A stretch of DNA of 64,000 nt from NCBI GenBank assembly GCA_018509705.1, contig GCA_018509705.1_3630.1; one strand, 5' to 3'. This DNA is from a phage. Positions 51,047-59,315 of this stretch are shown here, one piece after another (position 1 is the first letter of the stretch; every line of letters starts with the position of its first letter). The translations under genes were made by a program, and so were the position numbers. The notes beneath the pieces are model-generated. The model was not told the DNA's origin, did no database searches, and saw nothing but the letters and a program-made list of their open reading frames with translations.

Positions 51047-51129
51047 TAAATTACCCTCATTAATGGCGGGAAGTATTCCCGCGCTATGTAGTACACTTTA
51101 CCAGATTGTTGACTGTTGTCAAACTATTT

Positions 51130-51958: not shown

Positions 51959-52164
51959 GGTTTTAACTCCTATCTATCCGGTTAATGATTGGAGGCCTCA
52001 CCGCCCCCCGACACCCTTTATTATCCATATTGTAGGACTTGATGCAAGTACTTCTTTAAAAATTTTTTAAGCGCCTTGGGGGCCGCTGTAACGCCAAAAT
52101 AATAAAGGCTATGCAACCGCATAGCCTTTATGTGATTATATCGCTGCAGGCCCTGCCAGGGGCC

Positions 52165-52515
52165 TTATTTTGCATTCTTTCCTATATTGCCGCTACGGTA
52201 CCAGCGTTTACGGTGAAAATGGTAATAATCACCATCGGCATTAAACATCAGATGATTTTCAATAACCAGCTTACGAAGGTGGGCCGGATCTTGTTCCATT
52301 CTTGCCAGATTCTGGCGGCTGTTACGTAAGCGGATAAATTCTATATTCAGGCCGTTGATTGCAGCATGGATGTCAAAGTAACCACCTTTGAGACGTTCAC
52401 GCATGGCGTTAAGCTCAACACAATATACAGATTTCTCACAAATCAAGGTATTAGCCAGGGCGCGGACCTGGGCAAGAGGGTTAAGCTCATTAAGGTAATA
52501 TAGTTTTACTTTCAT
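52165..52515 (-). CDS. hypothetical protein
   Basis: ORF track. Confidence 0.4.
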   Translation of the reverse strand: MKVKLYYLNELNPLAQVRALANTLICEKSVYCVELNAMRERLKGGYFDIHAAINGLNIEFIRLRNSRQNLARMEQDPAHLRKLVIENHLMFNADGDYYHFHRKRWYRSGNIGKNAK

Positions 52516-52532
52516 AAAATCACCTGCTGAAA

Positions 52533-52853
52533 TTAGTTTGAGAAAACATCGTTCACAATAGCGATCACAATGCCGCCCACCTTGTCACGGTCAACAATGC
52601 ACAAATCACCATAGATCATGTGGTAGTCTGGATGATCTTTGACGGAATAGTCGATAAGTGTTTTCTTGTCATCCAGCTTACTAACTTCCATTCTCATAAC
52701 GATATGAGAATCATCAAAGGCATTATTCCGAAAAGTCATAACCTGACCGCCAGGGCACCCGGTGATTTCCACCTCCACGCCGTCTACGATCTGACCATCA
52801 AAGAAATAAAGATTATTAGCCTGGATAAACATGATCATTACTCCTTTTTGCAC
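52533..52853 (-). CDS. hypothetical protein
   Basis: ORF track; AAAAGGAG RBS. Confidence 0.4.
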   Translation of the reverse strand: MQKGVMIMFIQANNLYFFDGQIVDGVEVEITGCPGGQVMTFRNNAFDDSHIVMRMEVSKLDDKKTLIDYSVKDHPDYHMIYGDLCIVDRDKVGGIVIAIVNDVFSN

Positions 52854-52876
52854 TGATTATTTTAACAGGGTTTAAA

Positions 52877-52920
52877 TTTACTTTATTGATGGCCCTGGAG
52901 TCAAGGCCATCTAAAAATAA
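52877..52920 (-). promoter_or_regulatory. 44-bp conserved palindromic terminator-promoter element, copy 1 of 3
   Basis: Minus strand TTATTTTTAGATGGCC-TTGACTCCAG-GGCCATCAATAAAGTAAA directly after upstream stop; TTGACx hexamer in loop. Confidence 0.5.
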
Positions 52921-52923
52921 ATT

Positions 52924-53124
52924 TTACAGGCCTACAATCTCTTTAATTCGTTTTACTGCTGCCTCAGCGCCTTGAGGGTAAAAATTATGGTAACCAATCA
53001 CGCGAGTGATACTAATCGCCGTTTGATGATCTTCATAATCACCTTTAAAGATTTCTTGACCGTCAATCAGCACGGCAATTTTTTCTTCTTTTTTGAAGTT
53101 AATAACGCGGATATTGTTGCTCAT
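52924..53124 (-). CDS. hypothetical small protein
   Basis: ORF track; leader hairpin GGGGAGTGTCTCCCC upstream. Confidence 0.4.
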   Translation of the reverse strand: MSNNIRVINFKKEEKIAVLIDGQEIFKGDYEDHQTAISITRVIGYHNFYPQGAEAAVKRIKEIVGL

Positions 53125-53220
53125 TTTGTTTCTCCTTTTGGAACTTTGTCTATGCGGTGGGGAGTGTCTCCCCGTTGATTGTTATTATCCATATTCTGGA
53201 TCGGATTGCAACACTCAGGG

Positions 53221-53261
53221 AGAAAAAAATTTGAAAAGTTAGGCCCCCATGATCGGGGGCC
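53221..53261 (-). terminator. Rho-independent terminator (minus)
   Basis: GGCCCCCGATCATGGGGGCC hairpin followed by T-rich run on minus strand. Confidence 0.5.
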
Positions 53262-53265
53262 GTTC

Positions 53266-53385
53266 TTAGTTACTTACAGCGATAAAGTACATCCCTACGC
53301 CTAGCAATATTTCAAGGGCGATAATCTCAAGCCATACCATAACGCGGCGCACCTTATCGGTGCATGGCTTATCCTTGGTTGTCAT
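53266..53385 (-). CDS. micro-ORF, 39-aa membrane peptide
   Basis: Strong AAGGGGGAG RBS; MTTKDKPCTDKVRRVMVWLEIIALEILLGVGMYFIAVSN. Confidence 0.35.
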   Translation of the reverse strand: MTTKDKPCTDKVRRVMVWLEIIALEILLGVGMYFIAVSN

Positions 53386-53604
53386 CGTCTCCCCCTTTCC
53401 TTCTGGTAGTAGTGACGCGATCTACAATGGCCCCCAGGAGTCCTATCACGACACACACCACAAGAAAAATTATCTCCGCTGTTGTTCGATCCATTGTTAT
53501 AAAATTCCTCAAGATCAGGCCTGAAAATAAAGCGTTCGTTATTGAATCCATCCCGCCAGGCGGCTGGCTTCAAATCTTCACTAAAGGGGTTAATTAACGT
53601 GGCA

Positions 53605-54009
53605 TTATTTAAACGGCTGGTCCACATATTTTCTATTCCTCTCAAATAGGCGATCCGCCTCAGTTAAACAAATCTCATGGGCGTGATCTCTGGTTTTAGC
53701 TTCATCGAAAACCTGTTGTGCAAGGCTGCAACGTAGGGAGACTGGAAGATCACTATAATAGGCGTTGACAAACGTTTGAGCGTCGTACAGGTCTGAAAAT
53801 ACTTTACCCTTTCTATTATTCCCCTTGTCAACAATTGCAAGGATAACCAATACAATAGTTGCAACCACCCCCAGGAAAATAGATATAATAAACCATAAAA
53901 AGGCGGATCTTCCCATCTTGCCAGCGATCCAGGCGTTAAACAAGGCAACCAATACAGCCAAAATAATAAATTCCATTCTATGTACCTCTTTTACAGTTCT
54001 GATTAACAA
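53605..54009 (-). CDS. membrane protein (two TM helices)
   Basis: MEFIILAVLVALFNAWIAG and FLWFIISIFLGVVATIVLVILAIV. Confidence 0.45.
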   Translation of the reverse strand: MLIRTVKEVHRMEFIILAVLVALFNAWIAGKMGRSAFLWFIISIFLGVVATIVLVILAIVDKGNNRKGKVFSDLYDAQTFVNAYYSDLPVSLRCSLAQQVFDEAKTRDHAHEICLTEADRLFERNRKYVDQPFK

Positions 54010-54040
54010 TAAGGCGGCAAATATGCCGCCTGCTACCTGA

Positions 54041-54421
54041 TTAAAAATTATCGCCGTAAATCTTTCCGCTTTCTACCCATACCACCACGCGAGGCATACT
54101 ATCCCACACGTCTTGTTTTAGATTGAGCGCGTGCAATTCTTCGGTGGTGCTCATACCGGGCACGGGCTGATTGTATACTGCAAAACGACCGCCTGCATAA
54201 TCATAGGCCAGGGTTAAATCACACTGGATCATCTTTTTGATCATGGCATTAAGCATGGCGTTAGCCGCATATTGATCACGTTTTAAAGGCAACTCTTTGA
54301 TTAGTTTGCGATAGTTTTCGATATGGTCGCACACTGTTTCACGAGGAAGATCTTTCATATCTTCACGGAATGTAACCAGGTTAAACATAACGGTGTCAAT
54401 AGCCTTGGTAGTGTTTTTCAT
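54041..54421 (-). CDS. hypothetical protein
   Basis: ORF track. Confidence 0.45.
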   Translation of the reverse strand: MKNTTKAIDTVMFNLVTFREDMKDLPRETVCDHIENYRKLIKELPLKRDQYAANAMLNAMIKKMIQCDLTLAYDYAGGRFAVYNQPVPGMSTTEELHALNLKQDVWDSMPRVVVWVESGKIYGDNF

Positions 54422-54511
54422 GATGTTATCCTCTTTGTTTTGTGTTGGGGCAAACGTCTTGCCACCTTGAGTTTTAATATAGCAGGTTTTTAGGTTATTG
54501 CAACACTTTAT

Positions 54512-54889
54512 TTATGAAAAAGTCATCTCACCATATTCATCGACATCAAACCGCCAATCATTGGCCTCGATAAGGCCGATCAGGTTTTCTGCGGTGAACT
54601 GTTCTAGATAGGCCTCCTCCAGGTCTACGTAAACCTTGCGGGATAGCTCCCGTACCGTCTCGGTGATCAGTTCTTCCAGGTCTTCCACTTTGTTTTCTTG
54701 TTTGGCGGTCAGATCTAGCCAAGTGGTATCAATGTACCCGCTTACAGTGTTTTCATGGCTGTAATGGCTGTACTTGTCGCGTTCAACACTGGCTGATAAC
54801 TCGCCATCGTGCATTGTGCCGAACAAGTGACGAATTGATCGGAACTTGGTCAGGGCCTTTACTTTACGCAAAAATTTTTCTAAATCCAC
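54512..54889 (-). CDS. hypothetical acidic protein
   Basis: ORF track. Confidence 0.45.
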   Translation of the reverse strand: MDLEKFLRKVKALTKFRSIRHLFGTMHDGELSASVERDKYSHYSHENTVSGYIDTTWLDLTAKQENKVEDLEELITETVRELSRKVYVDLEEAYLEQFTAENLIGLIEANDWRFDVDEYGEMTFS

Positions 54890-54946
54890 GTTTTCAGCAC
54901 TGATTGACGCGCCGTCACCCTGGCACCAAAAGCCTGACCAATGTAC

Positions 54947-55135
54947 TTAGGTATCTTCAAGGCCATACTCTGGAAAAACATATTCTTTATAGTATTCAAT
55001 TACACTTTCTGCAAAAAAGTTATCCCCGCTGTGTTCTTCTCTTTCGCGGACCATTTCAACGGCTTTTTCTTTTTGTTCGTCGGTCAGCACGTCGAAAGAT
55101 AAATTGTAACCTGCGGTAATGTTAACGGTGGTCAT
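54947..55135 (-). CDS. hypothetical small acidic protein
   Basis: ORF track; AGGAGAA RBS. Confidence 0.4.
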   Translation of the reverse strand: MTTVNITAGYNLSFDVLTDEQKEKAVEMVREREEHSGDNFFAESVIEYYKEYVFPEYGLEDT

Positions 55136-55163
55136 GATATTTTCTCCTATTTTCTTTGTTAGT

Positions 55164-55220
55164 GGCGGGAAGTTTTCCCGCCTGTGTGTTTAAGTATACT
55201 TATTGAGGCTTACTTGTCAA
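55164..55220 (-). promoter_or_regulatory. promoter (TTGACA-16-TATACT) followed by conserved leader hairpin GGCGGGAAAACTTCCCGCC
   Basis: Read on minus strand; hairpin at 55164-55182. Confidence 0.5.
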
Positions 55221-55470
55221 CACTATTTTTTAAATTATTGTGGCGCAAAATGTTTAAAATCTCCTCAACGTCATCAACACGGCGGCAATTTTTAAACGCT
55301 ACCAATTGCCCCATGATTTTAATCACTGGGCGGCCTTGCCAGTGCCCCTGAAGAAAGCGCGCCCTGACTTTATCGGTGGAACTATCACGCCACCAAATAG
55401 CCTTGTTGTTGCAGTAGTAAAAATTATTCAGGATAACATCAACTTTATCAAAATTTTTTAATTTACGCAT
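55210..55470 (-). CDS. hypothetical protein
   Basis: ORF track; TTGACA-16-TATACT about 40 nt upstream. Confidence 0.4.
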   Translation of the reverse strand: MRKLKNFDKVDVILNNFYYCNNKAIWWRDSSTDKVRARFLQGHWQGRPVIKIMGQLVAFKNCRRVDDVEEILNILRHNNLKNSVDK

Positions 55471-55651
55471 GGCGTTTACTCCTTTCTCTCTTTGATGTGG
55501 TTAGTATAGCTAACCTGTTGACGATGTCAATGATATTTTTAACGCCATGAAACGGCCCTGGGCGATGTTTTCAGGTTAAAGGGGGCGATTGCATAGGTGG
55601 GGGCCTTTTTGGCGCTTACAGGGCCAACCAGGGGCGCTATTCGTAGGATAG

Positions 55652-55681
55652 AAATAAAAAGCCCCGCACAATGGCGGGGCG
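55652..55681 (-). terminator. Rho-independent terminator (minus)
   Basis: GCCCCGCCATTGTGCGGGGC hairpin plus T-run on minus strand. Confidence 0.6.
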
Positions 55682-55688
55682 TTGGTTG

Positions 55689-55886
55689 TTATTTGTCTTT
55701 ATGGCGGTATCGTTCTGCCTGTCGTTCACGTTCCAAAAGTAGGCCGGGCAATTTACGATCATAATGATTACGCCAGATCTTCCCAAACCTTTTTGGCTTA
55801 TTCAGTTTATTGTTACGCTGGCGGCGTTCTGGCAGCTCTTCGGAATCATGAGGGCGCTTTACAATTTTCTCGAAATTAATTTTCAT
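55689..55886 (-). CDS. hypothetical small basic protein
   Basis: Lys/Arg-rich; start uncertain. Confidence 0.3.
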   Translation of the reverse strand: MKINFEKIVKRPHDSEELPERRQRNNKLNKPKRFGKIWRNHYDRKLPGLLLERERQAERYRHKDK

Positions 55887-56229
55887 ATATTCCCCCCTTG
55901 CTAACTTCAATATTGGCCTGAATAGCCCGGATACGGCGCTTTATAACTTCCTGATCTGTGTGGTCGTATCCCCAAAAGTCTACAATTTTTGCGCCCCCCG
56001 CCTCCAGGCGGTATAGTGTTTCCTGCATTTTGTAAGCCGGGATCGGTCGCGGTGTTACTTGGTCACCTTCTTTATTTTTATACTTTATAATATAATCTTC
56101 GTTATCGTTGAATGCCCAAAATGGATATTCTGCAAGGGCGGTACTTCCTCTTTCCTTTTTATCCTGGATCTTATTTACAATTAAAGCCGTAGCAATAGCG
56201 CCAATAATAAAACTTGCCCCGCTGATCAT
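55876..56229 (-). CDS. membrane-anchored protein
   Basis: N-terminal TM ISGASFIIGAIATALIV. Confidence 0.45.
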   Translation of the reverse strand: MISGASFIIGAIATALIVNKIQDKKERGSTALAEYPFWAFNDNEDYIIKYKNKEGDQVTPRPIPAYKMQETLYRLEAGGAKIVDFWGYDHTDQEVIKRRIRAIQANIEVSKGGIYEN

Positions 56230-56303
56230 GTACTTTCTCCTTTCATGGTGTTAATAAATTATCTTTATAGATGGCCCTGCAACCAGGACCACCGAAAAAA
56301 TAA

Positions 56304-56549
56304 CTATTTCACAATGCCTACAAAACAGATCCCGCCTTCACCTATATAAGCAATATCGGTCACTTTATAACTTGTCAAGATCTGCTTATTTAGTTCATTA
56401 ATAAAATCGGTCATTGCGTTGGTGTAGTTGTCTTCCGTGTCTAAGGCATAATCCCAGGTGTACACCTTTTTACGTCCGAAGCCTTTTACCATGATACGGG
56501 CGCTTTTGGTGTTGGTAGGGGCATAATATTTGGTGATTAGTGCTGCCAT
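56304..56549 (-). CDS. hypothetical small protein
   Basis: ORF track; AGGAGTTAAAACC then ATG. Confidence 0.45.
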   Translation of the reverse strand: MAALITKYYAPTNTKSARIMVKGFGRKKVYTWDYALDTEDNYTNAMTDFINELNKQILTSYKVTDIAYIGEGGICFVGIVK

Positions 56550-56592
56550 GGTTTTAACTCCTATGCATTAGTTCAGTGTTAACAGTATAAAG

Positions 56593-56636
56593 TTTACTTT
56601 ATTGATGGCCCTGGTGTCAAGGCCATCTAAAAATAA
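56593..56636 (-). promoter_or_regulatory. 44-bp conserved palindromic terminator-promoter element, copy 2 of 3
   Basis: Identical to copy 3; directly after stop of gene 56639-56980. Confidence 0.5.
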
Positions 56637-56638
56637 GC

Positions 56639-56980
56639 TTACTCGTTTTCTTCCAGCTCCGCAAGCTCTTCTTTTGCTTCTTCTAACTCTGTCTGTAATT
56701 CCTGGTATTCTTCATCGTCCTCAATATCCAGGCTGTCGATGTAGTCGCTAAATCCGCAGCGGTAAGCGATAGGATCTAGCTCCTTGAGGATACGCGACGG
56801 AAGAAAAGAAATGTTTCCGATCATAATTTCGCCGTAGATCTCGTCTAACCATTCATCATAGTTTTCGTCGTACTTGTCCTCGTCGATTTCAAAGTTATCG
56901 ATCTTATTCTCAAGGTCTGCGATCTGTTTTTTCAGTTCAGCGATCTGCATAGCTTTTTCTGAGGCGGTCATAGTAGTCAT
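56639..56980 (-). CDS. hypothetical acidic coiled-coil protein
   Basis: ORF track. Confidence 0.45.
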   Translation of the reverse strand: MTTMTASEKAMQIAELKKQIADLENKIDNFEIDEDKYDENYDEWLDEIYGEIMIGNISFLPSRILKELDPIAYRCGFSDYIDSLDIEDDEEYQELQTELEEAKEELAELEENE

Positions 56981-57006
56981 GGTGTTTTTCTCCTTTTGTG
57001 TGTTCT

Positions 57007-57059
57007 GGGAAGTTTTCCCGTTTATGTGCTTATTATATCGATTTAAGTTAGCTTGTCAA
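57007..57059 (-). promoter_or_regulatory. promoter (TTGACA-16-TATAAT) followed by leader hairpin GGGAAAACTTCCC
   Basis: Read on minus strand. Confidence 0.55.
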
Positions 57060-57112
57060 TTAAAAGTTTAAGAAAAATTTTGCGACACCGTTGGCGCTAC
57101 CCATCAACATTT

Positions 57113-57180
57113 GCGCCAGGATGTACCCAATGATGCAAACGATGATGGTTACCTTTGTGTGCTGGCGTGTAGTGCTCATC
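57113..57180 (-). CDS. micro-ORF, hydrophobic peptide (boundaries approximate)
   Basis: AAGGAGG RBS; MSTTRQHTKVTIIVCIIGYILAQMLMGSANG... Confidence 0.3.
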
Positions 57181-57213
57181 TTTAAGCCTCCTTTTCCGCT
57201 CAACTGTGGTTAG

Positions 57214-57257
57214 TTTACTTTATTGATGGCCCTGGTGTCAAGGCCATCTAAAAATAA
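57214..57257 (-). promoter_or_regulatory. 44-bp conserved palindromic terminator-promoter element, copy 3 of 3
   Basis: TTATTTTTAGATGGCC-TTGACACCAG-GGCCATCAATAAAGTAAA after stop of gene 57260-57655. Confidence 0.5.
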
Positions 57258-57259
57258 AC

Positions 57260-57655
57260 TCAATAAGTTTTTAGTACTTTCCCGTCCAATCTGTCAAGCT
57301 GGATCTCGATAGCTGCAGAAAACCTATTGTAAACCACATCGCCCAGGGAGTCCAGCCAATCTATGACGTTATATACCTGCTCTTTATTCTTGCAAGTCCG
57401 GATCCGTTTCATTACGTAAGACGGATCAATATTAGCGCTCTCGTTGTTGTGGTCCTGCGCCTGGCCTGCTGCGCTAGTTATAGATTTTACAACCACCTGA
57501 AAGGGCTTTAAGGTGCCTTTTGCGTTCATCTCACGCGCTTTTGCGGCGCGGTTGTTATATGTTACACAACGGCGGCAAATGTTGACCAAATGCATATCAA
57601 TAATTTTTTCATCGTTTGCCAGTTCGTTCATGATGCGGCGTACGTTCTTGTTCAT
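57260..57655 (-). CDS. hypothetical protein
   Basis: ORF track; AAAGGAAAAAG RBS. Confidence 0.45.
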   Translation of the reverse strand: MNKNVRRIMNELANDEKIIDMHLVNICRRCVTYNNRAAKAREMNAKGTLKPFQVVVKSITSAAGQAQDHNNESANIDPSYVMKRIRTCKNKEQVYNVIDWLDSLGDVVYNRFSAAIEIQLDRLDGKVLKTY

Positions 57656-57675
57656 GATCTTTTTCCTTTGTGCTG

Positions 57676-57731
57676 GCGGGAAACATTCCCGCCTTTTGTG
57701 TCTAGTTTACTTAAATTTTGCAGCGTGTCAA
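57676..57731 (-). promoter_or_regulatory. promoter (TTGACA-16-TAAACT) followed by leader hairpin GGCGGGAATGTTTCCCGCC
   Basis: Read on minus strand. Confidence 0.5.
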
Positions 57732-57737
57732 TGATTT

Positions 57738-58136
57738 TTATTCGTGGGCGCATGTTACAATGTGTTTTTTATAGCCCAGGTGGTCAGCAAGTGCCGACAA
57801 AAACTCTTCTTCGTAGATCCAGCCGTCGGCAGTGATCCCCATAGCATTTAATGCGCTCTCAAGTGCTGCGTTAGCTTTATCGTAACCGTGACCGCTCGCC
57901 TTGCCGCCAGTATAACCGTACTTATTGTTCTTGTTGTCGTGAATCCAAAACACGCAGTAGTGAGTGTTCCCGCTGGCGGCGGCATAATACCGGATCTCAG
58001 CTACTTCGTGCAAATTATTGTCATCGTCCAGGCCCACCAGATTATAAGCCTTGTAAAATCCACGATCACGGCGGCAGTTCTTGACATCAGAAAAAGAAAA
58101 GTCCGCATTATCAAAATTAAAGGTAGTGGTTTTCAT
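57738..58136 (-). CDS. hypothetical protein
   Basis: ORF track. Confidence 0.45.
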   Translation of the reverse strand: MKTTTFNFDNADFSFSDVKNCRRDRGFYKAYNLVGLDDDNNLHEVAEIRYYAAASGNTHYCVFWIHDNKNNKYGYTGGKASGHGYDKANAALESALNAMGITADGWIYEEEFLSALADHLGYKKHIVTCAHE

Positions 58137-59030: not shown

Positions 59031-59224
59031 GAACTCCTCGCATTTAATAAATTTAATTAGCATGCTAATTACCCTCCGTAACAATTTCCTATAAAACAGT
59101 ATCCCATAAAATATTCCCATATAGAAATTTTAAAAATCCATTTCTGAAAACGAAAAATCGATTTCGTCCCCAAAAATTTCAGGTCGAGAGCTGGAACGAT
59201 TTCCAGAAAATCCGATTCAGAAAA

Positions 59225-59315
59225 CGAAAAACAGATCGAGTACTTGGAAATTTATCGAGAAAAATTTTCAGAAAATTCAATCTTTGAAACGAAAAACAGA
59301 TCGAGTACTTGGAAA
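59225..59315. repeat. perfect 26-bp direct repeat x2 inside an AT-rich GAAAA-repeat tract
   Basis: CGAAAAACAGATCGAGTACTTGGAAA at 59225-59250 and 59290-59315. Confidence 0.65.

What the first reader, a model, noticed from the sequence alone, without database searches (positions are those of the whole stretch)
52877..57257. 44-bp palindromic element repeated three times at gene junctions, with a -35 hexamer inside the loop
The sequence (minus strand) TTATTTTTAGATGGCC-TTGACACCAG-GGCCATCAATAAAGTAAA occurs at 52877-52920, 56593-56636 and 57214-57257, each time 1-3 nt after a stop codon and 40-60 nt before the next start. The 8-bp arms AGATGGCC/GGCCATCT form a stem or a dimeric-protein operator, and the loop carries TTGACA. 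This is either a terminator-promoter cassette or an operator that occludes the -35 when bound, allowing coordinated control of three early genes.
Basis: seen in the sequence. Interest (0 to 1): 0.6.

Follow-up and report, generated by a model that had tools for sequence, protein, structure and literature searches.

The report
Repeated intercistronic RNA hairpin in rV5-like phages
A roughly 50-nt sequence found four times between small early genes of an rV5-like E. coli phage is a conserved RNA hairpin shaped like the RNase III cutting sites of phage T7, and recombination between its copies has removed genes in related phages; this is a new example of known kinds of element, not a new mechanism.

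Summary
The repeat is real. All lie on the coding (minus) strand between early ORFan genes of a Vequintavirus that is 99.8% identical to phage EdH4.

It is not a symmetric DNA operator and not an intrinsic terminator. The selected feature is an RNA hairpin on the sense transcript: a 10-bp upper stem with a U·G pair, a tetraloop, a 2x3 internal loop and a 10-bp A·U lower stem. Across 32 distinct copies from 12 genomes, 98.8% of pair positions are paired. Four lower-stem pairs show compensatory changes. Every copy folds better on the sense strand.

The shape matches T7-type RNase III processing signals, including the U-A/U·G distal box and the 11-bp spacing. Cleavage itself is untested.

TTGAC(N) in the stem and loop, with TAAAYT 18 bp downstream, could be a weak promoter in three copies, but it is absent from the fourth.

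Recombination between copies has deleted the intervening genes in several related phages, as described for PeSL cassettes of T4-like phages.

The element is unannotated and restricted to this genus. Oddly, the same 10-bp stem occurs in lambdoid prophages of Pseudomonas and related bacteria.

The parts
57209..57263 (-). Copy 3 of the element, between the 131-aa ORF (57260-57655) and the small ORF starting at 57178. Upper stem 57248-57239 / 57234-57225, loop ACAC 57238-57235.
   Evidence: Covariance model R1 scores 80.5 bits. Sense-strand fold -25.1 kcal/mol, z = -6.9.
56588..56642 (-). Copy 2, between the 113-aa ORF (56639-56980) and the 81-aa ORF (56304-56549). Lower-stem 5' arm 56639-56630, which overlaps the stop codon. 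5' internal loop 56629-56628. Upper 5' arm 56627-56618. Tetraloop 56617-56614. Upper 3' arm 56613-56604. 3' internal loop AAU 56603-56601, the predicted RNase III scissile region. Lower 3' arm 56600-56591.
   Evidence: Pair probabilities 0.78-1.0, apart from one C·A mismatch in the lower stem.
56254..56308 (-). Upper stem GGUGGUCCUG/CAGGGCCAUC with two G·U pairs, loop GUUG. No -35-like hexamer.
   Evidence: 69% identity; 71.2 bits. Folds at -22.4 kcal/mol on the sense strand and -8.1 on the antisense strand.
52872..52926 (-). Copy 1, between the 66-aa ORF (52924-53124) and the ORF starting at 52832. Upper stem 52911-52902 / 52897-52888, loop ACUC.
   Evidence: 82.6 bits.
56591..56620 (-). Promoter-like match inside copy 2: TTGACA, 18-bp spacer, TAAACT. 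The same match is at 57241-57212 in copy 3. Copy 1 has TTGACT-18-TAAATT at 52904-52875. The -35 is half stem and half loop. The -10 lies in the 3' arm of the lower stem.
   Evidence: 10/12, 10/12 and 9/12. The region as a whole has 57 such matches against 32.6 expected, so a single match is weak evidence.
56640..57260 (-). The 621-bp cassette bounded by copies 3 and 2. It holds the small ORF 57060-57178, a strong promoter at 57059-57032 with its leader hairpin, and the 113-aa ORF. It is absent from phages magaca, ime and phiWec189 and from IMG/VR contig L027, which carry one chimeric copy (copy 3 left flank, copy 2 right flank).
56306..56639 (-). The 334-bp cassette bounded by copies 2 and 4, holding the 81-aa ORF. 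It is absent from phage 241Ecol014PP, whose single copy is a copy 2/copy 4 chimera.
57032..57059 (-). Context: a strong sigma70-type promoter (TTGACA-16-TATAAT), equivalent to P192 annotated in rV5. It heads the operon 113 aa - copy 2 - 81 aa - copy 4 - 117 aa - 73 aa, which ends at the terminator 55680-55661. Copies 2 and 4 are therefore internal to an operon.

Best explanation
The element is a cis-acting RNA structure in the polycistronic early transcripts of the minus strand. It starts at the stop codon of the upstream gene.

**Anatomy.** A 10-bp A·U-rich lower stem, a 2x3-nt internal loop, a 10-bp G·C-rich upper stem with a U·G pair next to the loop end, and a tetraloop of free sequence.

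**Most likely role.** It is an intercistronic processing and stability signal of the T7 early-region type. Host RNase III would bind the two-turn helix and cut at the internal loop, 11 bp from the tetraloop. This would separate the cistrons and leave the upstream message with a 3' hairpin that blocks 3'-5' exonucleases.

**Second role.** Because the four copies are nearly identical direct repeats, they also serve as crossover points that delete (or insert) the ORFan cassettes between them.

**Shown:** the repeat, selection on the sense-strand fold, and the recombination junctions.
**Inferred:** RNase III as the acting enzyme, and the effect on mRNA stability.
For: **Fold.** The sense-strand fold is -21 to -25 kcal/mol, z -4.5 to -6.9, for all four copies.

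**Selection on the structure (41 copies, 32 distinct, 12 genomes).**
- 98.8% of pair cells are paired, against 34-58% when the 3' partner is slid by 1-3 columns.
- Four lower-stem pairs change on both sides.
- All upper-stem variation is G·U to G-C or A-U.
- 0 of 500 shuffles reach the observed covariation score.
- The sense strand is more stable than the antisense strand in 32/32 copies, by 9.4 kcal/mol on average.
- Only 11-16% of element columns vary, against 14-32% in the upstream coding sequence and 19-53% downstream. The variation sits in the loop and in covarying pairs.

**Position.** Copies 2 and 4 lie between an upstream promoter and a downstream terminator with no other signal between the genes.

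**Match to RNase III sites.**
- Folding the T7 intergenic gaps that hold its early RNase III sites (positions recalled from Dunn & Studier) gives 9-10-bp upper stems with one G·U and 3-5-nt loops, right after stop codons, as a repeated family.
- Published rules (PMC1540722) call for two helical turns, 11 bp between tetraloop and scissile bond, an internal loop that limits cleavage to one strand and leaves a protective 3' hairpin, a distal box of U-A then U·G, no loop-sequence requirement, A-U or U-A at pb2, and no G-C at pb4.
- Copies 1-3 meet all of these. Their middle-box pairs match R1.1 (C-G) or a substitution reported to enhance cleavage (G-C).

**Recombination.** Junctions lie exactly inside the element.
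Against: - No transcript-end or cleavage data exist for any Vequintavirus in the searchable literature.
- Proximal-box positions 1 and 3 (U-A and G-C) differ from the uR1.1 optimum (G-C and A-U). The paper says substitutions at these positions weaken binding.
- Copy 4 has C-G at db2 and G·U at pb2, so it would be a poorer substrate.
- The upper stem shows no double compensatory change within the genus. Sequence-specific recognition by some other factor is therefore not excluded.
- TTGAC(N)-18-TAAAYT is conserved in copies 1-3. It overlaps the stems completely, so conservation alone cannot separate a promoter role from the fold.
- The covariance model finds no similarity to T7 sites and Rfam has no matching family. 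The link to RNase III rests on architecture, not homology.
Confidence: 0.45

Rival explanations
1. PeSL-type composite cassette. The element is mainly a sigma70 promoter, made of an A/T-rich UP-like tract, TTGAC(N), an 18-bp spacer and TAAAYT. Its overlapping stem-loop attenuates read-through from upstream, so each downstream ORFan carries its own regulatory module.
For: - The anatomy matches the published PeSL description: stop codon in an A/T-rich stretch, a stem-loop with G·T pairs that may overlap the -35, then an SD and start codon, in ORFan-rich plastic regions.
- Promoter-like score of 9-10 of 12 in copies 1-3, conserved across genomes.
- ORFan cassettes flanked by two copies are replaced by one chimeric copy in sister phages, as for RB49/phi1.
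- rV5's early region shares ORFans with RB49 (annotation).
Against: - Copy 4 has no -35 yet keeps the hairpin under compensatory evolution.
- L003 copy 3 has insertions that give a 20-bp spacer while the fold is intact.
- All hexamer variation is at loop positions: TTGACA/T/C/G, TTGATT and TTGATA.
- Genuine promoters in this region have 16-17-bp spacers, near-consensus -10 boxes and a characteristic leader hairpin, all of which the element lacks.
- No T-run follows the stem, so termination is not predicted.
- rV5's authors did not list it among 33 promoters and 20 terminators.
Confidence: 0.25
2. Passive RNA hairpin with no RNase III involvement. It would act as a 3'-5' exonuclease barrier after cleavage elsewhere (for example by RNase E in the A/U-rich flanks). 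Alternatively it would act as an insulator that stops terminating ribosomes from sliding into the next cistron. This resembles REP-type or T4 intercistronic stabiliser hairpins.
For: - The same structural evidence as for the best explanation.
- The upper stem alone is stable at -16.3 kcal/mol, while the A·U lower stem is weak and could breathe to expose A/U-rich single strands.
- The stop codon lies inside the lower stem.
Against: - It does not explain why the lower stem is kept by compensatory changes, giving a full two-turn helix.
- It does not explain why the internal loop sits exactly 11 bp from the tetraloop with a canonical U-A/U·G distal box.
A simple barrier needs only the upper stem.
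Confidence: 0.15
3. Binding site for a sequence-specific RNA-binding protein, from the phage or the host, that coordinately controls translation or decay of the downstream early genes.
For: - The 20 nt of the upper stem are almost invariant in copies 1-3 across genomes that differ by 5-15%.
- The identical stem occurs in unrelated lambdoid prophages of Pseudomonas, Halopseudomonas, Ralstonia and Rhodospirillales.
- Three permuted controls give no hits.
Against: - The loop sequence is free: ACAC, ACUC, ACUU, ACCC, ACGC, AUUC, GUUG, GUAG, GUGG and AUAAC.
- In the prophage family the stem covaries and can be entirely different.
- Copy 4 differs at three upper-stem pair positions.
- No candidate protein has been identified.
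Confidence: 0.08
4. DNA operator. A dimeric regulator binds the inverted repeat and occludes the -35.
For: A 7-bp perfect inverted repeat flanks a -35-like hexamer in three copies.
Against: - The arms are 10 nt apart.
- Copy 4's left half-site differs at 2 of 7 positions, in exactly the way that preserves RNA G·U pairing but not DNA symmetry.
- Lower-stem covariation and the 32/32 strand asymmetry are not expected for a DNA site.
- The sites are inside operons rather than at their promoters.
Confidence: 0.04
5. Functionless repeat: a duplication scar or selfish short repeat kept only by gene conversion.
For: Copies within one genome sometimes share loop variants (ACAC in copies 2 and 3 here, ACUU in copies 1 and 2 of rV5). 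This suggests conversion between copies.
Against: - The element is more conserved than the neighbouring coding sequence.
- There are compensatory changes in orthologous copy 4.
- It holds a fixed position relative to stop codons in all four junctions.
- The flanking genes are not paralogues.
Confidence: 0.03

Closest known systems
RNase III processing sites of the phage T7 early region (R0.3, R0.5, R1, R1.1, R1.3)
   Same: - A repeated family of hairpins in intergenic gaps right after stop codons of co-transcribed early genes.
- A 9-10-bp upper stem with a G·U pair, a 3-5-nt loop of no fixed sequence, an internal loop below it and a further helix.
- R1.1 and the element share closing pair / U-A / U·G next to the loop, and 11 bp from the loop to the internal loop.
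- Single-strand cleavage there leaves a protective 3' hairpin (PMC1540722).
   Different: - No sequence homology. Model R1 finds nothing in T7, and T7's conserved AAGGUC...UGGCCUU / UAUGAUU is absent.
- Proximal-box positions 1 and 3 differ from R1.1.
- The host phage is a myovirus that uses host RNA polymerase throughout.
- Cleavage has not been shown.
PeSLs (promoter-early stem-loops) of T4-like phages RB49, phi1, PST/T4 and nt-1/KVP40 (Arbiol 2010, PMC2839356; Comeau 2014, PMC4122927)
   Same: - Repeated intergenic motifs in ORFan-rich early regions.
- The stop codon lies in an A/T-rich stretch.
- A stem-loop with G·T pairs may overlap the -35.
- A downstream SD and start codon.
- Recombination between neighbouring copies excises ORFan cassettes and leaves a chimeric copy.
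   Different: - PeSLs carry consensus, experimentally very strong sigma70 promoters, and stem-loops that terminate as well as rrnB T1. They span about 100 bp and number dozens per genome.
- Here the promoter match is moderate (18-bp spacer, TAAAYT) and missing from one copy. No terminator features are present. The conserved unit is about 50 nt, with four copies per genome, in a different phage subfamily.
RNase III-sensitive hairpin of the lambda N leader, and the related single-copy hairpin found here in Pseudomonas/Ralstonia lambdoid prophages
   Same: - The prophage hairpin has the identical 10-bp upper stem, an internal loop directly below it and a complementary lower stem, just upstream of an SD.
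- In L024 it lies in the early-left leader downstream of a boxA-like sequence. As I recall lambda biology, that is the position of the lambda N-leader RNase III site.
   Different: - It is single-copy with a GNRA loop and a G/C-containing lower stem, in different hosts.
- Its function is unknown.
- The comparison with lambda rests on memory, not on a tool result.
- Whether the shared stem reflects transfer, convergence or chance is unresolved.
Intrinsic (Rho-independent) terminators
   Same: A G·C-rich hairpin at the end of a gene.
   Different: No T-run follows the stem on either strand; instead the T-run precedes the stem and an A-run follows it. The element is not called by the terminator scan or by the annotators of EdH4, Alma and rV5.

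Membership tests
E. coli RNase III processing signal (T7 R-site type) | Quasi-continuous double helix of about two turns (about 20 bp) | tested here: met
   10-bp upper stem plus 10-bp lower stem, separated by a 2x3 internal loop, in all four copies. The requirement is from PMC1540722.
E. coli RNase III processing signal (T7 R-site type) | About 11 bp between the hairpin loop and the scissile bond, with an internal loop or bulge that restricts cleavage to one strand | tested here: met
   A 10-bp upper stem plus an A·A mismatch at the pb4 position, then a 3'-side AAU loop. T7 sites fold the same way.
E. coli RNase III processing signal (T7 R-site type) | Distal box U-A then U·G; proximal box G-C / A-U or U-A / A-U / A-U or U-A; no G-C at pb2 or pb4 | tested here: inconclusive
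   Copies 1-3: db1 U-A and db2 U·G are met. pb2 A-U is met. pb4 is a mismatch, not G-C, so met. pb1 is U-A and pb3 is G-C, which both deviate. Copy 4: db2 is C-G and pb2 is G·U. Natural T7 sites also deviate; for example R0.5 has C-G at db2.
E. coli RNase III processing signal (T7 R-site type) | Actual RNase III-dependent cleavage | not testable with these tools
   No transcript-end data for any Vequintavirus in the searched literature.
PeSL (promoter-early stem-loop) cassette | Repeated intergenic motif in an ORFan-rich plastic region, with the upstream stop codon in an A/T-rich stretch and an SD plus start codon downstream | tested here: met
   The flanking 131-aa gene is a genus-restricted ORFan.
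PeSL (promoter-early stem-loop) cassette | Consensus, strong sigma70-type early promoter within the motif | tested here: inconclusive
   9-10 of 12 with an 18-bp spacer in copies 1-3. Absent from copy 4. The spacer is 20 bp in L003 copy 3. Activity not testable here.
PeSL (promoter-early stem-loop) cassette | Stable stem-loop (with G·T pairs) that overlaps or adjoins the promoter and terminates or attenuates transcription | tested here: inconclusive
   The stem-loop is present and overlaps the -35. No T-run is present and the terminator scan does not call it. Attenuation is not testable here.
PeSL (promoter-early stem-loop) cassette | Recombination between copies creates indels of the intervening ORFans and leaves a chimeric element | tested here: met
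   Copy 3 x copy 2 (621 bp) in magaca, ime, phiWec189 and L027. Copy 2 x copy 4 (334 bp) in 241Ecol014PP.
Intrinsic terminator | G·C-rich hairpin followed directly by a run of T (U) | tested here: not met
   The 3' flank is AATAAAGTAAA on the sense strand and TAAAAATAA on the other. It is absent from the terminator-like list.
Palindromic DNA operator for a dimeric regulator | Two symmetric DNA half-sites conserved in all copies, with no dependence on RNA pairing rules | tested here: not met
   Copy 4's half-sites, GGTGGTC / GGCCATC, are asymmetric as DNA but pair as RNA through G·U. Lower-stem covariation is present, and the sense strand is favoured in 32/32 copies.
Any curated RNA family (Rfam 15) | Match at or near a family's gathering score | tested here: not met
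   Only chance-level hits (E of about 1.5 or more, well below gathering scores) across 52500-57700.

The most novel reading that the evidence does not exclude
The 10-bp upper stem (GAUGGCCUUG / CAGGGCCAUC, with its U·G pair) may be a portable RNA module recognised in a sequence-specific way by a factor conserved across Proteobacteria, or it may have been exchanged horizontally. This would explain why the same 20 nt appear in E. coli myoviruses and in the early-left leaders of lambdoid prophages of Pseudomonas, Halopseudomonas, Ralstonia and Rhodospirillales. On this reading the rV5 copies would be a regulon-like set of sites giving coordinated post-transcriptional control of early ORFans, beyond generic RNase III processing.
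Probability: 0.12. Interest if true: 0.65.

Novelty: new member of a known kind. Interest (0 to 1): 0.4.

Why it matters
- **Annotation gap.** rV5-like phages are widely used therapy and biocontrol candidates, with over 120 sequenced genomes. Their early region is a block of unannotated ORFans whose regulation is unknown. This adds a conserved, unannotated RNA element to that map and gives a testable hypothesis: RNase III-dependent processing, as in T7.
- **Gene content differences.** The element explains some gene-content differences between sister phages as crossovers between its copies. That extends the PeSL idea of regulatory repeats as shuffling points beyond T4-like phages.
- **Scale of the finding.** None of this overturns current understanding. 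It is a useful annotation and a modest mechanistic lead.
- **Possible follow-up.** The shared stem with Pseudomonas-group prophages is the one part that could grow into something more interesting.

Tried and rejected
- **Intrinsic terminator:** rejected. There is no T-run, and the scan and three sets of annotators do not call it.
- **DNA operator:** rejected on strand asymmetry and G·U-dependent pairing.
- **Duplication remnant:** rejected. Similarity stops at about 50 nt and the flanking genes are unrelated.
- **Known RNA family:** Rfam gives only chance-level hits.
- **Already published:** the rV5 genome paper and its promoter/terminator table do not contain the sequence. No Vequintavirus transcript mapping was found.
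- **More copies or distant homologues:** model R1 found none in the other 50 kb of EdH4, in T7, or in seven distant loci encoding relatives of the 113-aa protein. blastn finds the element only in Vequintavirus records.
- **No outgroup junction:** the flanking 131-aa gene has no homologue outside the genus.
- **E. coli genomes:** no near-complete copy. A 35-nt query against 28 Gb cannot detect partial matches.
- **Universally fixed upper stem:** rejected. In the prophage family it covaries and can be replaced entirely.
- **rV5_ev146 deletion (57168-57668):** it does not use the element.
- **RNase III quantitative data:** the tables of PMC1540722 are not held as text, so the cost of the pb1 and pb3 deviations could not be read.
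- **Failed or mistyped queries:** one literature query and one paper look-up failed on term format. One pattern search was mistyped and repeated.

Full report
**What the window is.** The region 52000-58000 is 99.8% identical to Escherichia phage EdH4. It matches 124 phage records, essentially all Vequintavirus (rV5-like myoviruses). Genes from about 49 kb to the end of the window run on the minus strand. They belong to the long early transcription unit described for rV5. They are small ORFs of unknown function, separated by strong sigma70-type promoters and ordinary hairpin-plus-T-run terminators.

**Checking the observation.** The core sequence occurs three times on the minus strand, at 52888-52912, 56604-56628 and 57225-57249, with no match in any of 100 shuffles. 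As 49-nt repeats the copies are 92-100% identical. Four corrections apply:
- The exact inverted repeat is 7 bp, not 8.
- Copy 1 has TTGACT.
- The next start codon is 35-44 nt away.
- There is a fourth copy, 69% identical, at 56257-56305.

A covariance model built from the four copies finds exactly these four in the window. It finds none in a further 50 kb of the EdH4 genome. blastn finds the element only in Vequintavirus records, usually three detectable copies per genome. None of the records inspected annotates it. The rV5 genome paper's list of 33 promoters and 20 terminators does not contain it.

**What is under selection.** Folded as RNA, the sense (minus) strand gives a long two-part hairpin: a 10-bp lower stem of A·U and G·U pairs that begins at the upstream stop codon, a 2x3-nt internal loop, a 10-bp upper stem (GAUGGCCUUG/CAGGGCCAUC, with one U·G) and a tetraloop. 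Energies are -21 to -25 kcal/mol, 4.5 to 6.9 standard deviations below shuffled sequence. The antisense strand folds less well. The fourth copy folds only on the sense strand (-22.4 against -8.1 kcal/mol), because two of its pairs are G·U.

I collected 41 copies (32 distinct) from 12 genomes. The results:
- 98.8% of pair positions are paired, against 34-58% when partners are slid by 1-3 columns.
- Four lower-stem pairs change on both sides (U-A/C-G; U-A/A-U/G·U/G-C; A-U/U-A; G-C/A-U/G·U).
- All variation in the upper stem converts G·U to G-C or A-U.
- No shuffle reaches the observed covariation score.
- The sense strand is more stable in 32 of 32 distinct copies, by 9.4 kcal/mol on average.
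- Only 11-16% of element columns vary, against 14-32% of the coding sequence just upstream and 19-53% downstream. The variable columns are the loop and the covarying pairs.

This is the signature of a structure in the sense transcript. It is not the signature of a symmetric protein-binding site in DNA.

**The promoter question.** TTGACA (or TTGACT), an 18-bp spacer and TAAACT (or TAAATT) score 9-10 of 12. However, this region has 57 such matches against 32.6 expected. TTG is part of the upper stem, the rest of the hexamer is the loop, and the -10 lies in the lower stem. Conservation therefore cannot separate promoter from fold in copies 1-3. Three observations favour the fold as the core:
- Copy 4 has no -35 but keeps the hairpin through compensatory changes.
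- In the most divergent genome (L003), copy 3 carries two single-base insertions that make the spacer 20 bp but leave the hairpin intact.
- Across genomes the hexamer varies only at its loop positions: TTGACA/T/C/G, TTGATT and TTGATA.

The strong promoters nearby look different. They have 16-17-bp spacers, near-consensus -10 boxes and a GGGAA-NNN-TTCCC leader hairpin. A weak promoter in copies 1-3 remains possible.

**The terminator question.** No T-run follows the hairpin on either strand. On both strands a T-rich arm precedes the stem and an A-rich arm follows it. The terminator scan does not list it.

**Position in operons.** Copies 2 and 4 lie inside the unit that starts at the promoter 57059-57032 (P192 in rV5) and ends at the terminator 55680-55661. 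Copy 3 lies between the 131-aa ORF and a small ORF upstream of that promoter. Copy 1 lies between the first two genes after the promoter 53211-53184. The element is therefore intercistronic.

**Most likely mechanism.** The closest functional model is the set of RNase III sites in the T7 early region. I folded the T7 intergenic gaps that I know from Dunn & Studier's work to hold those sites. This gave 9-10-bp stems with one G·U and 3-5-nt loops right after stop codons, as a repeated family. Pertzev & Nicholson (PMC1540722) define a site for the E. coli enzyme as follows:
- About two helical turns.
- 11 bp between the tetraloop and the scissile bond.
- Internal loops that limit cutting to one strand and leave a protective 3' hairpin.
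- No loop-sequence requirement.
- A distal box of U-A then U·G, and a middle box.
- A proximal box of G-C, A-U or U-A, A-U, and A-U or U-A, with G-C forbidden at pb2 and inhibitory at pb4.

Reading copies 1-3 from the loop gives: G-C closing pair, U-A, U·G, C-G, C-G, G-C, G-C, U-A, A-U, G-C, then an A·A mismatch. So the distal box is canonical and at the same distance from the loop as in R1.1. Of the middle-box pairs, one equals R1.1 and the other is a substitution reported to enhance cleavage. pb2 is A-U and pb4 is not G-C. pb1 and pb3 deviate. Copy 4 deviates more.

I therefore propose that host RNase III cuts at the internal loop, which uncouples the cistrons and stabilises the upstream one. 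This step is inferred. No cleavage or transcript-end data exist in the searchable literature.

**Recombination between copies.**
- In magaca, phiWec189 and the IMG/VR contig L027, a single copy carries the left flank of copy 3 and the right flank of copy 2. The 621 bp between them (a small ORF, promoter P192 and the 113-aa ORF) are missing, and the alignment breakpoints overlap by 46 bp inside the element.
- Phage ime shows the same junction as one uninterrupted match.
- magaca is almost identical to this window around the junction, whereas phiWec189 differs by about 7%. The arrangement is therefore either old or recurrent.
- In 241Ecol014PP a copy 2/copy 4 chimera replaces the 81-aa ORF. The chimera mismatches exactly the two lower-stem pairs that covary between the two types.
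- A deletion in the laboratory-evolved rV5_ev146 does not use the element.

This behaviour matches the PeSLs of T4-like phages, where ORFans flanked by two motifs are replaced by one chimeric motif in a sister phage. The element shares the PeSL anatomy except for a consensus promoter and terminator features.

**An unexpected relative.**
- The exact upper stem (20 specified nt) also occurs in about 21 IMG/VR contigs of 33-63 kb and in 12 bacterial genomes (Pseudomonas, Halopseudomonas, Ectopseudomonas, Ralstonia, Rhodospirillales).
- There it is single-copy, with a GNRA loop and a different but complementary lower stem (UUUCCU/GGGAAA), 10-20 nt upstream of the SD of varied genes.
- In L024 the host element is a lambdoid prophage with a CI-like repressor, Erf, a YqaJ-family exonuclease, RdgC, and an integrase next to a tRNA. 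The hairpin lies in the early-left leader after a boxA-like sequence.
- With only flanks and loop specified, the family shows compensatory changes and even entirely different 10-bp stems, so the sequence is not obligatory there.
- Three controls with the same pairs in permuted order gave no hits, so chance is not an easy explanation either.
- Rfam has no family for it.

Transfer, convergence on a good RNase III substrate, or coincidence all remain open.

**Verdict.** The element is a previously unannotated, genus-restricted, structured intercistronic RNA. It has T7-like RNase III architecture and PeSL-like recombination behaviour, which makes it a new member of known kinds.

Noticed in passing
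L016-L064 (for example L024:1753-1792); bacterial loci L041-L052: Lambdoid prophages of Pseudomonas, Halopseudomonas, Ralstonia and Rhodospirillales carry a single-copy hairpin in the early-left leader. It has a 10-bp stem (often identical to the rV5 upper stem), a GNRA loop, a U·G pair near the loop and a UUUCCU/GGGAAA lower stem, just upstream of the first gene's SD. The stem covaries across the family and Rfam has no match. It looks like an undescribed structured leader RNA.
   Followed up: partly
window 51068-51080, 55167-55179, 57007-57019, 57678-57690 (minus-strand transcripts): A second hairpin family, (C)GGGAA-NNN-UUCCC(G), lies a few nucleotides downstream of the -10 box of four strong sigma70-type promoters (51122-51095, 55220-55193, 57059-57032, 57731-57704). 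These are probably 5'-leader stabiliser hairpins. There are four exact matches, and with one mismatch allowed 7 matches against about 2 expected by chance.
   Followed up: partly
window 54949 (gene 54512-55135, minus strand): The homologue of rv5_gp180 (207 aa, intact in EdH4 and rV5) carries a GAA to TAA nonsense change at codon 63 in this genome. Alma and magaca also annotate this gene as split.
   Followed up: partly
window 59120-59315: Three degenerate direct repeats of 57-65 nt (GAAAACGAAAAACAGATCGAGTACTTGGAAA...) lie in a stretch with few ORFs. This may be the 'non-coding' box drawn in the rV5 genome map. The function is unknown; an origin or iteron-like region is one guess.
   Followed up: no
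search results: Seventeen GenBank records named 'Campylobacter phage' (host Campylobacter jejuni) are 93-99.7% identical to E. coli Vequintaviruses across this region. This suggests mislabelled hosts or contaminating coliphages.
   Followed up: no
L053 (T7) 1514, 3113, 36836: In the T7 record the minor E. coli promoters B, C and E are annotated within a few tens of bases of the hairpins in the 0.4/0.5, 0.7/1 and 18/18.5 gaps. So T7 also has host-type promoters next to its RNase III-type hairpins, a parallel to the -35-like hexamer in the rV5 element.
   Followed up: no
L015 (rV5_ev146) compared with window 57168-57668 and upstream of 55741: The laboratory-evolved rV5_ev146 lacks copies 1 and 3 and the 131-aa ORF, through deletions whose ends are not in the element. 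At least two copies, and the genes around them, are therefore dispensable for growth in the laboratory.
   Followed up: partly
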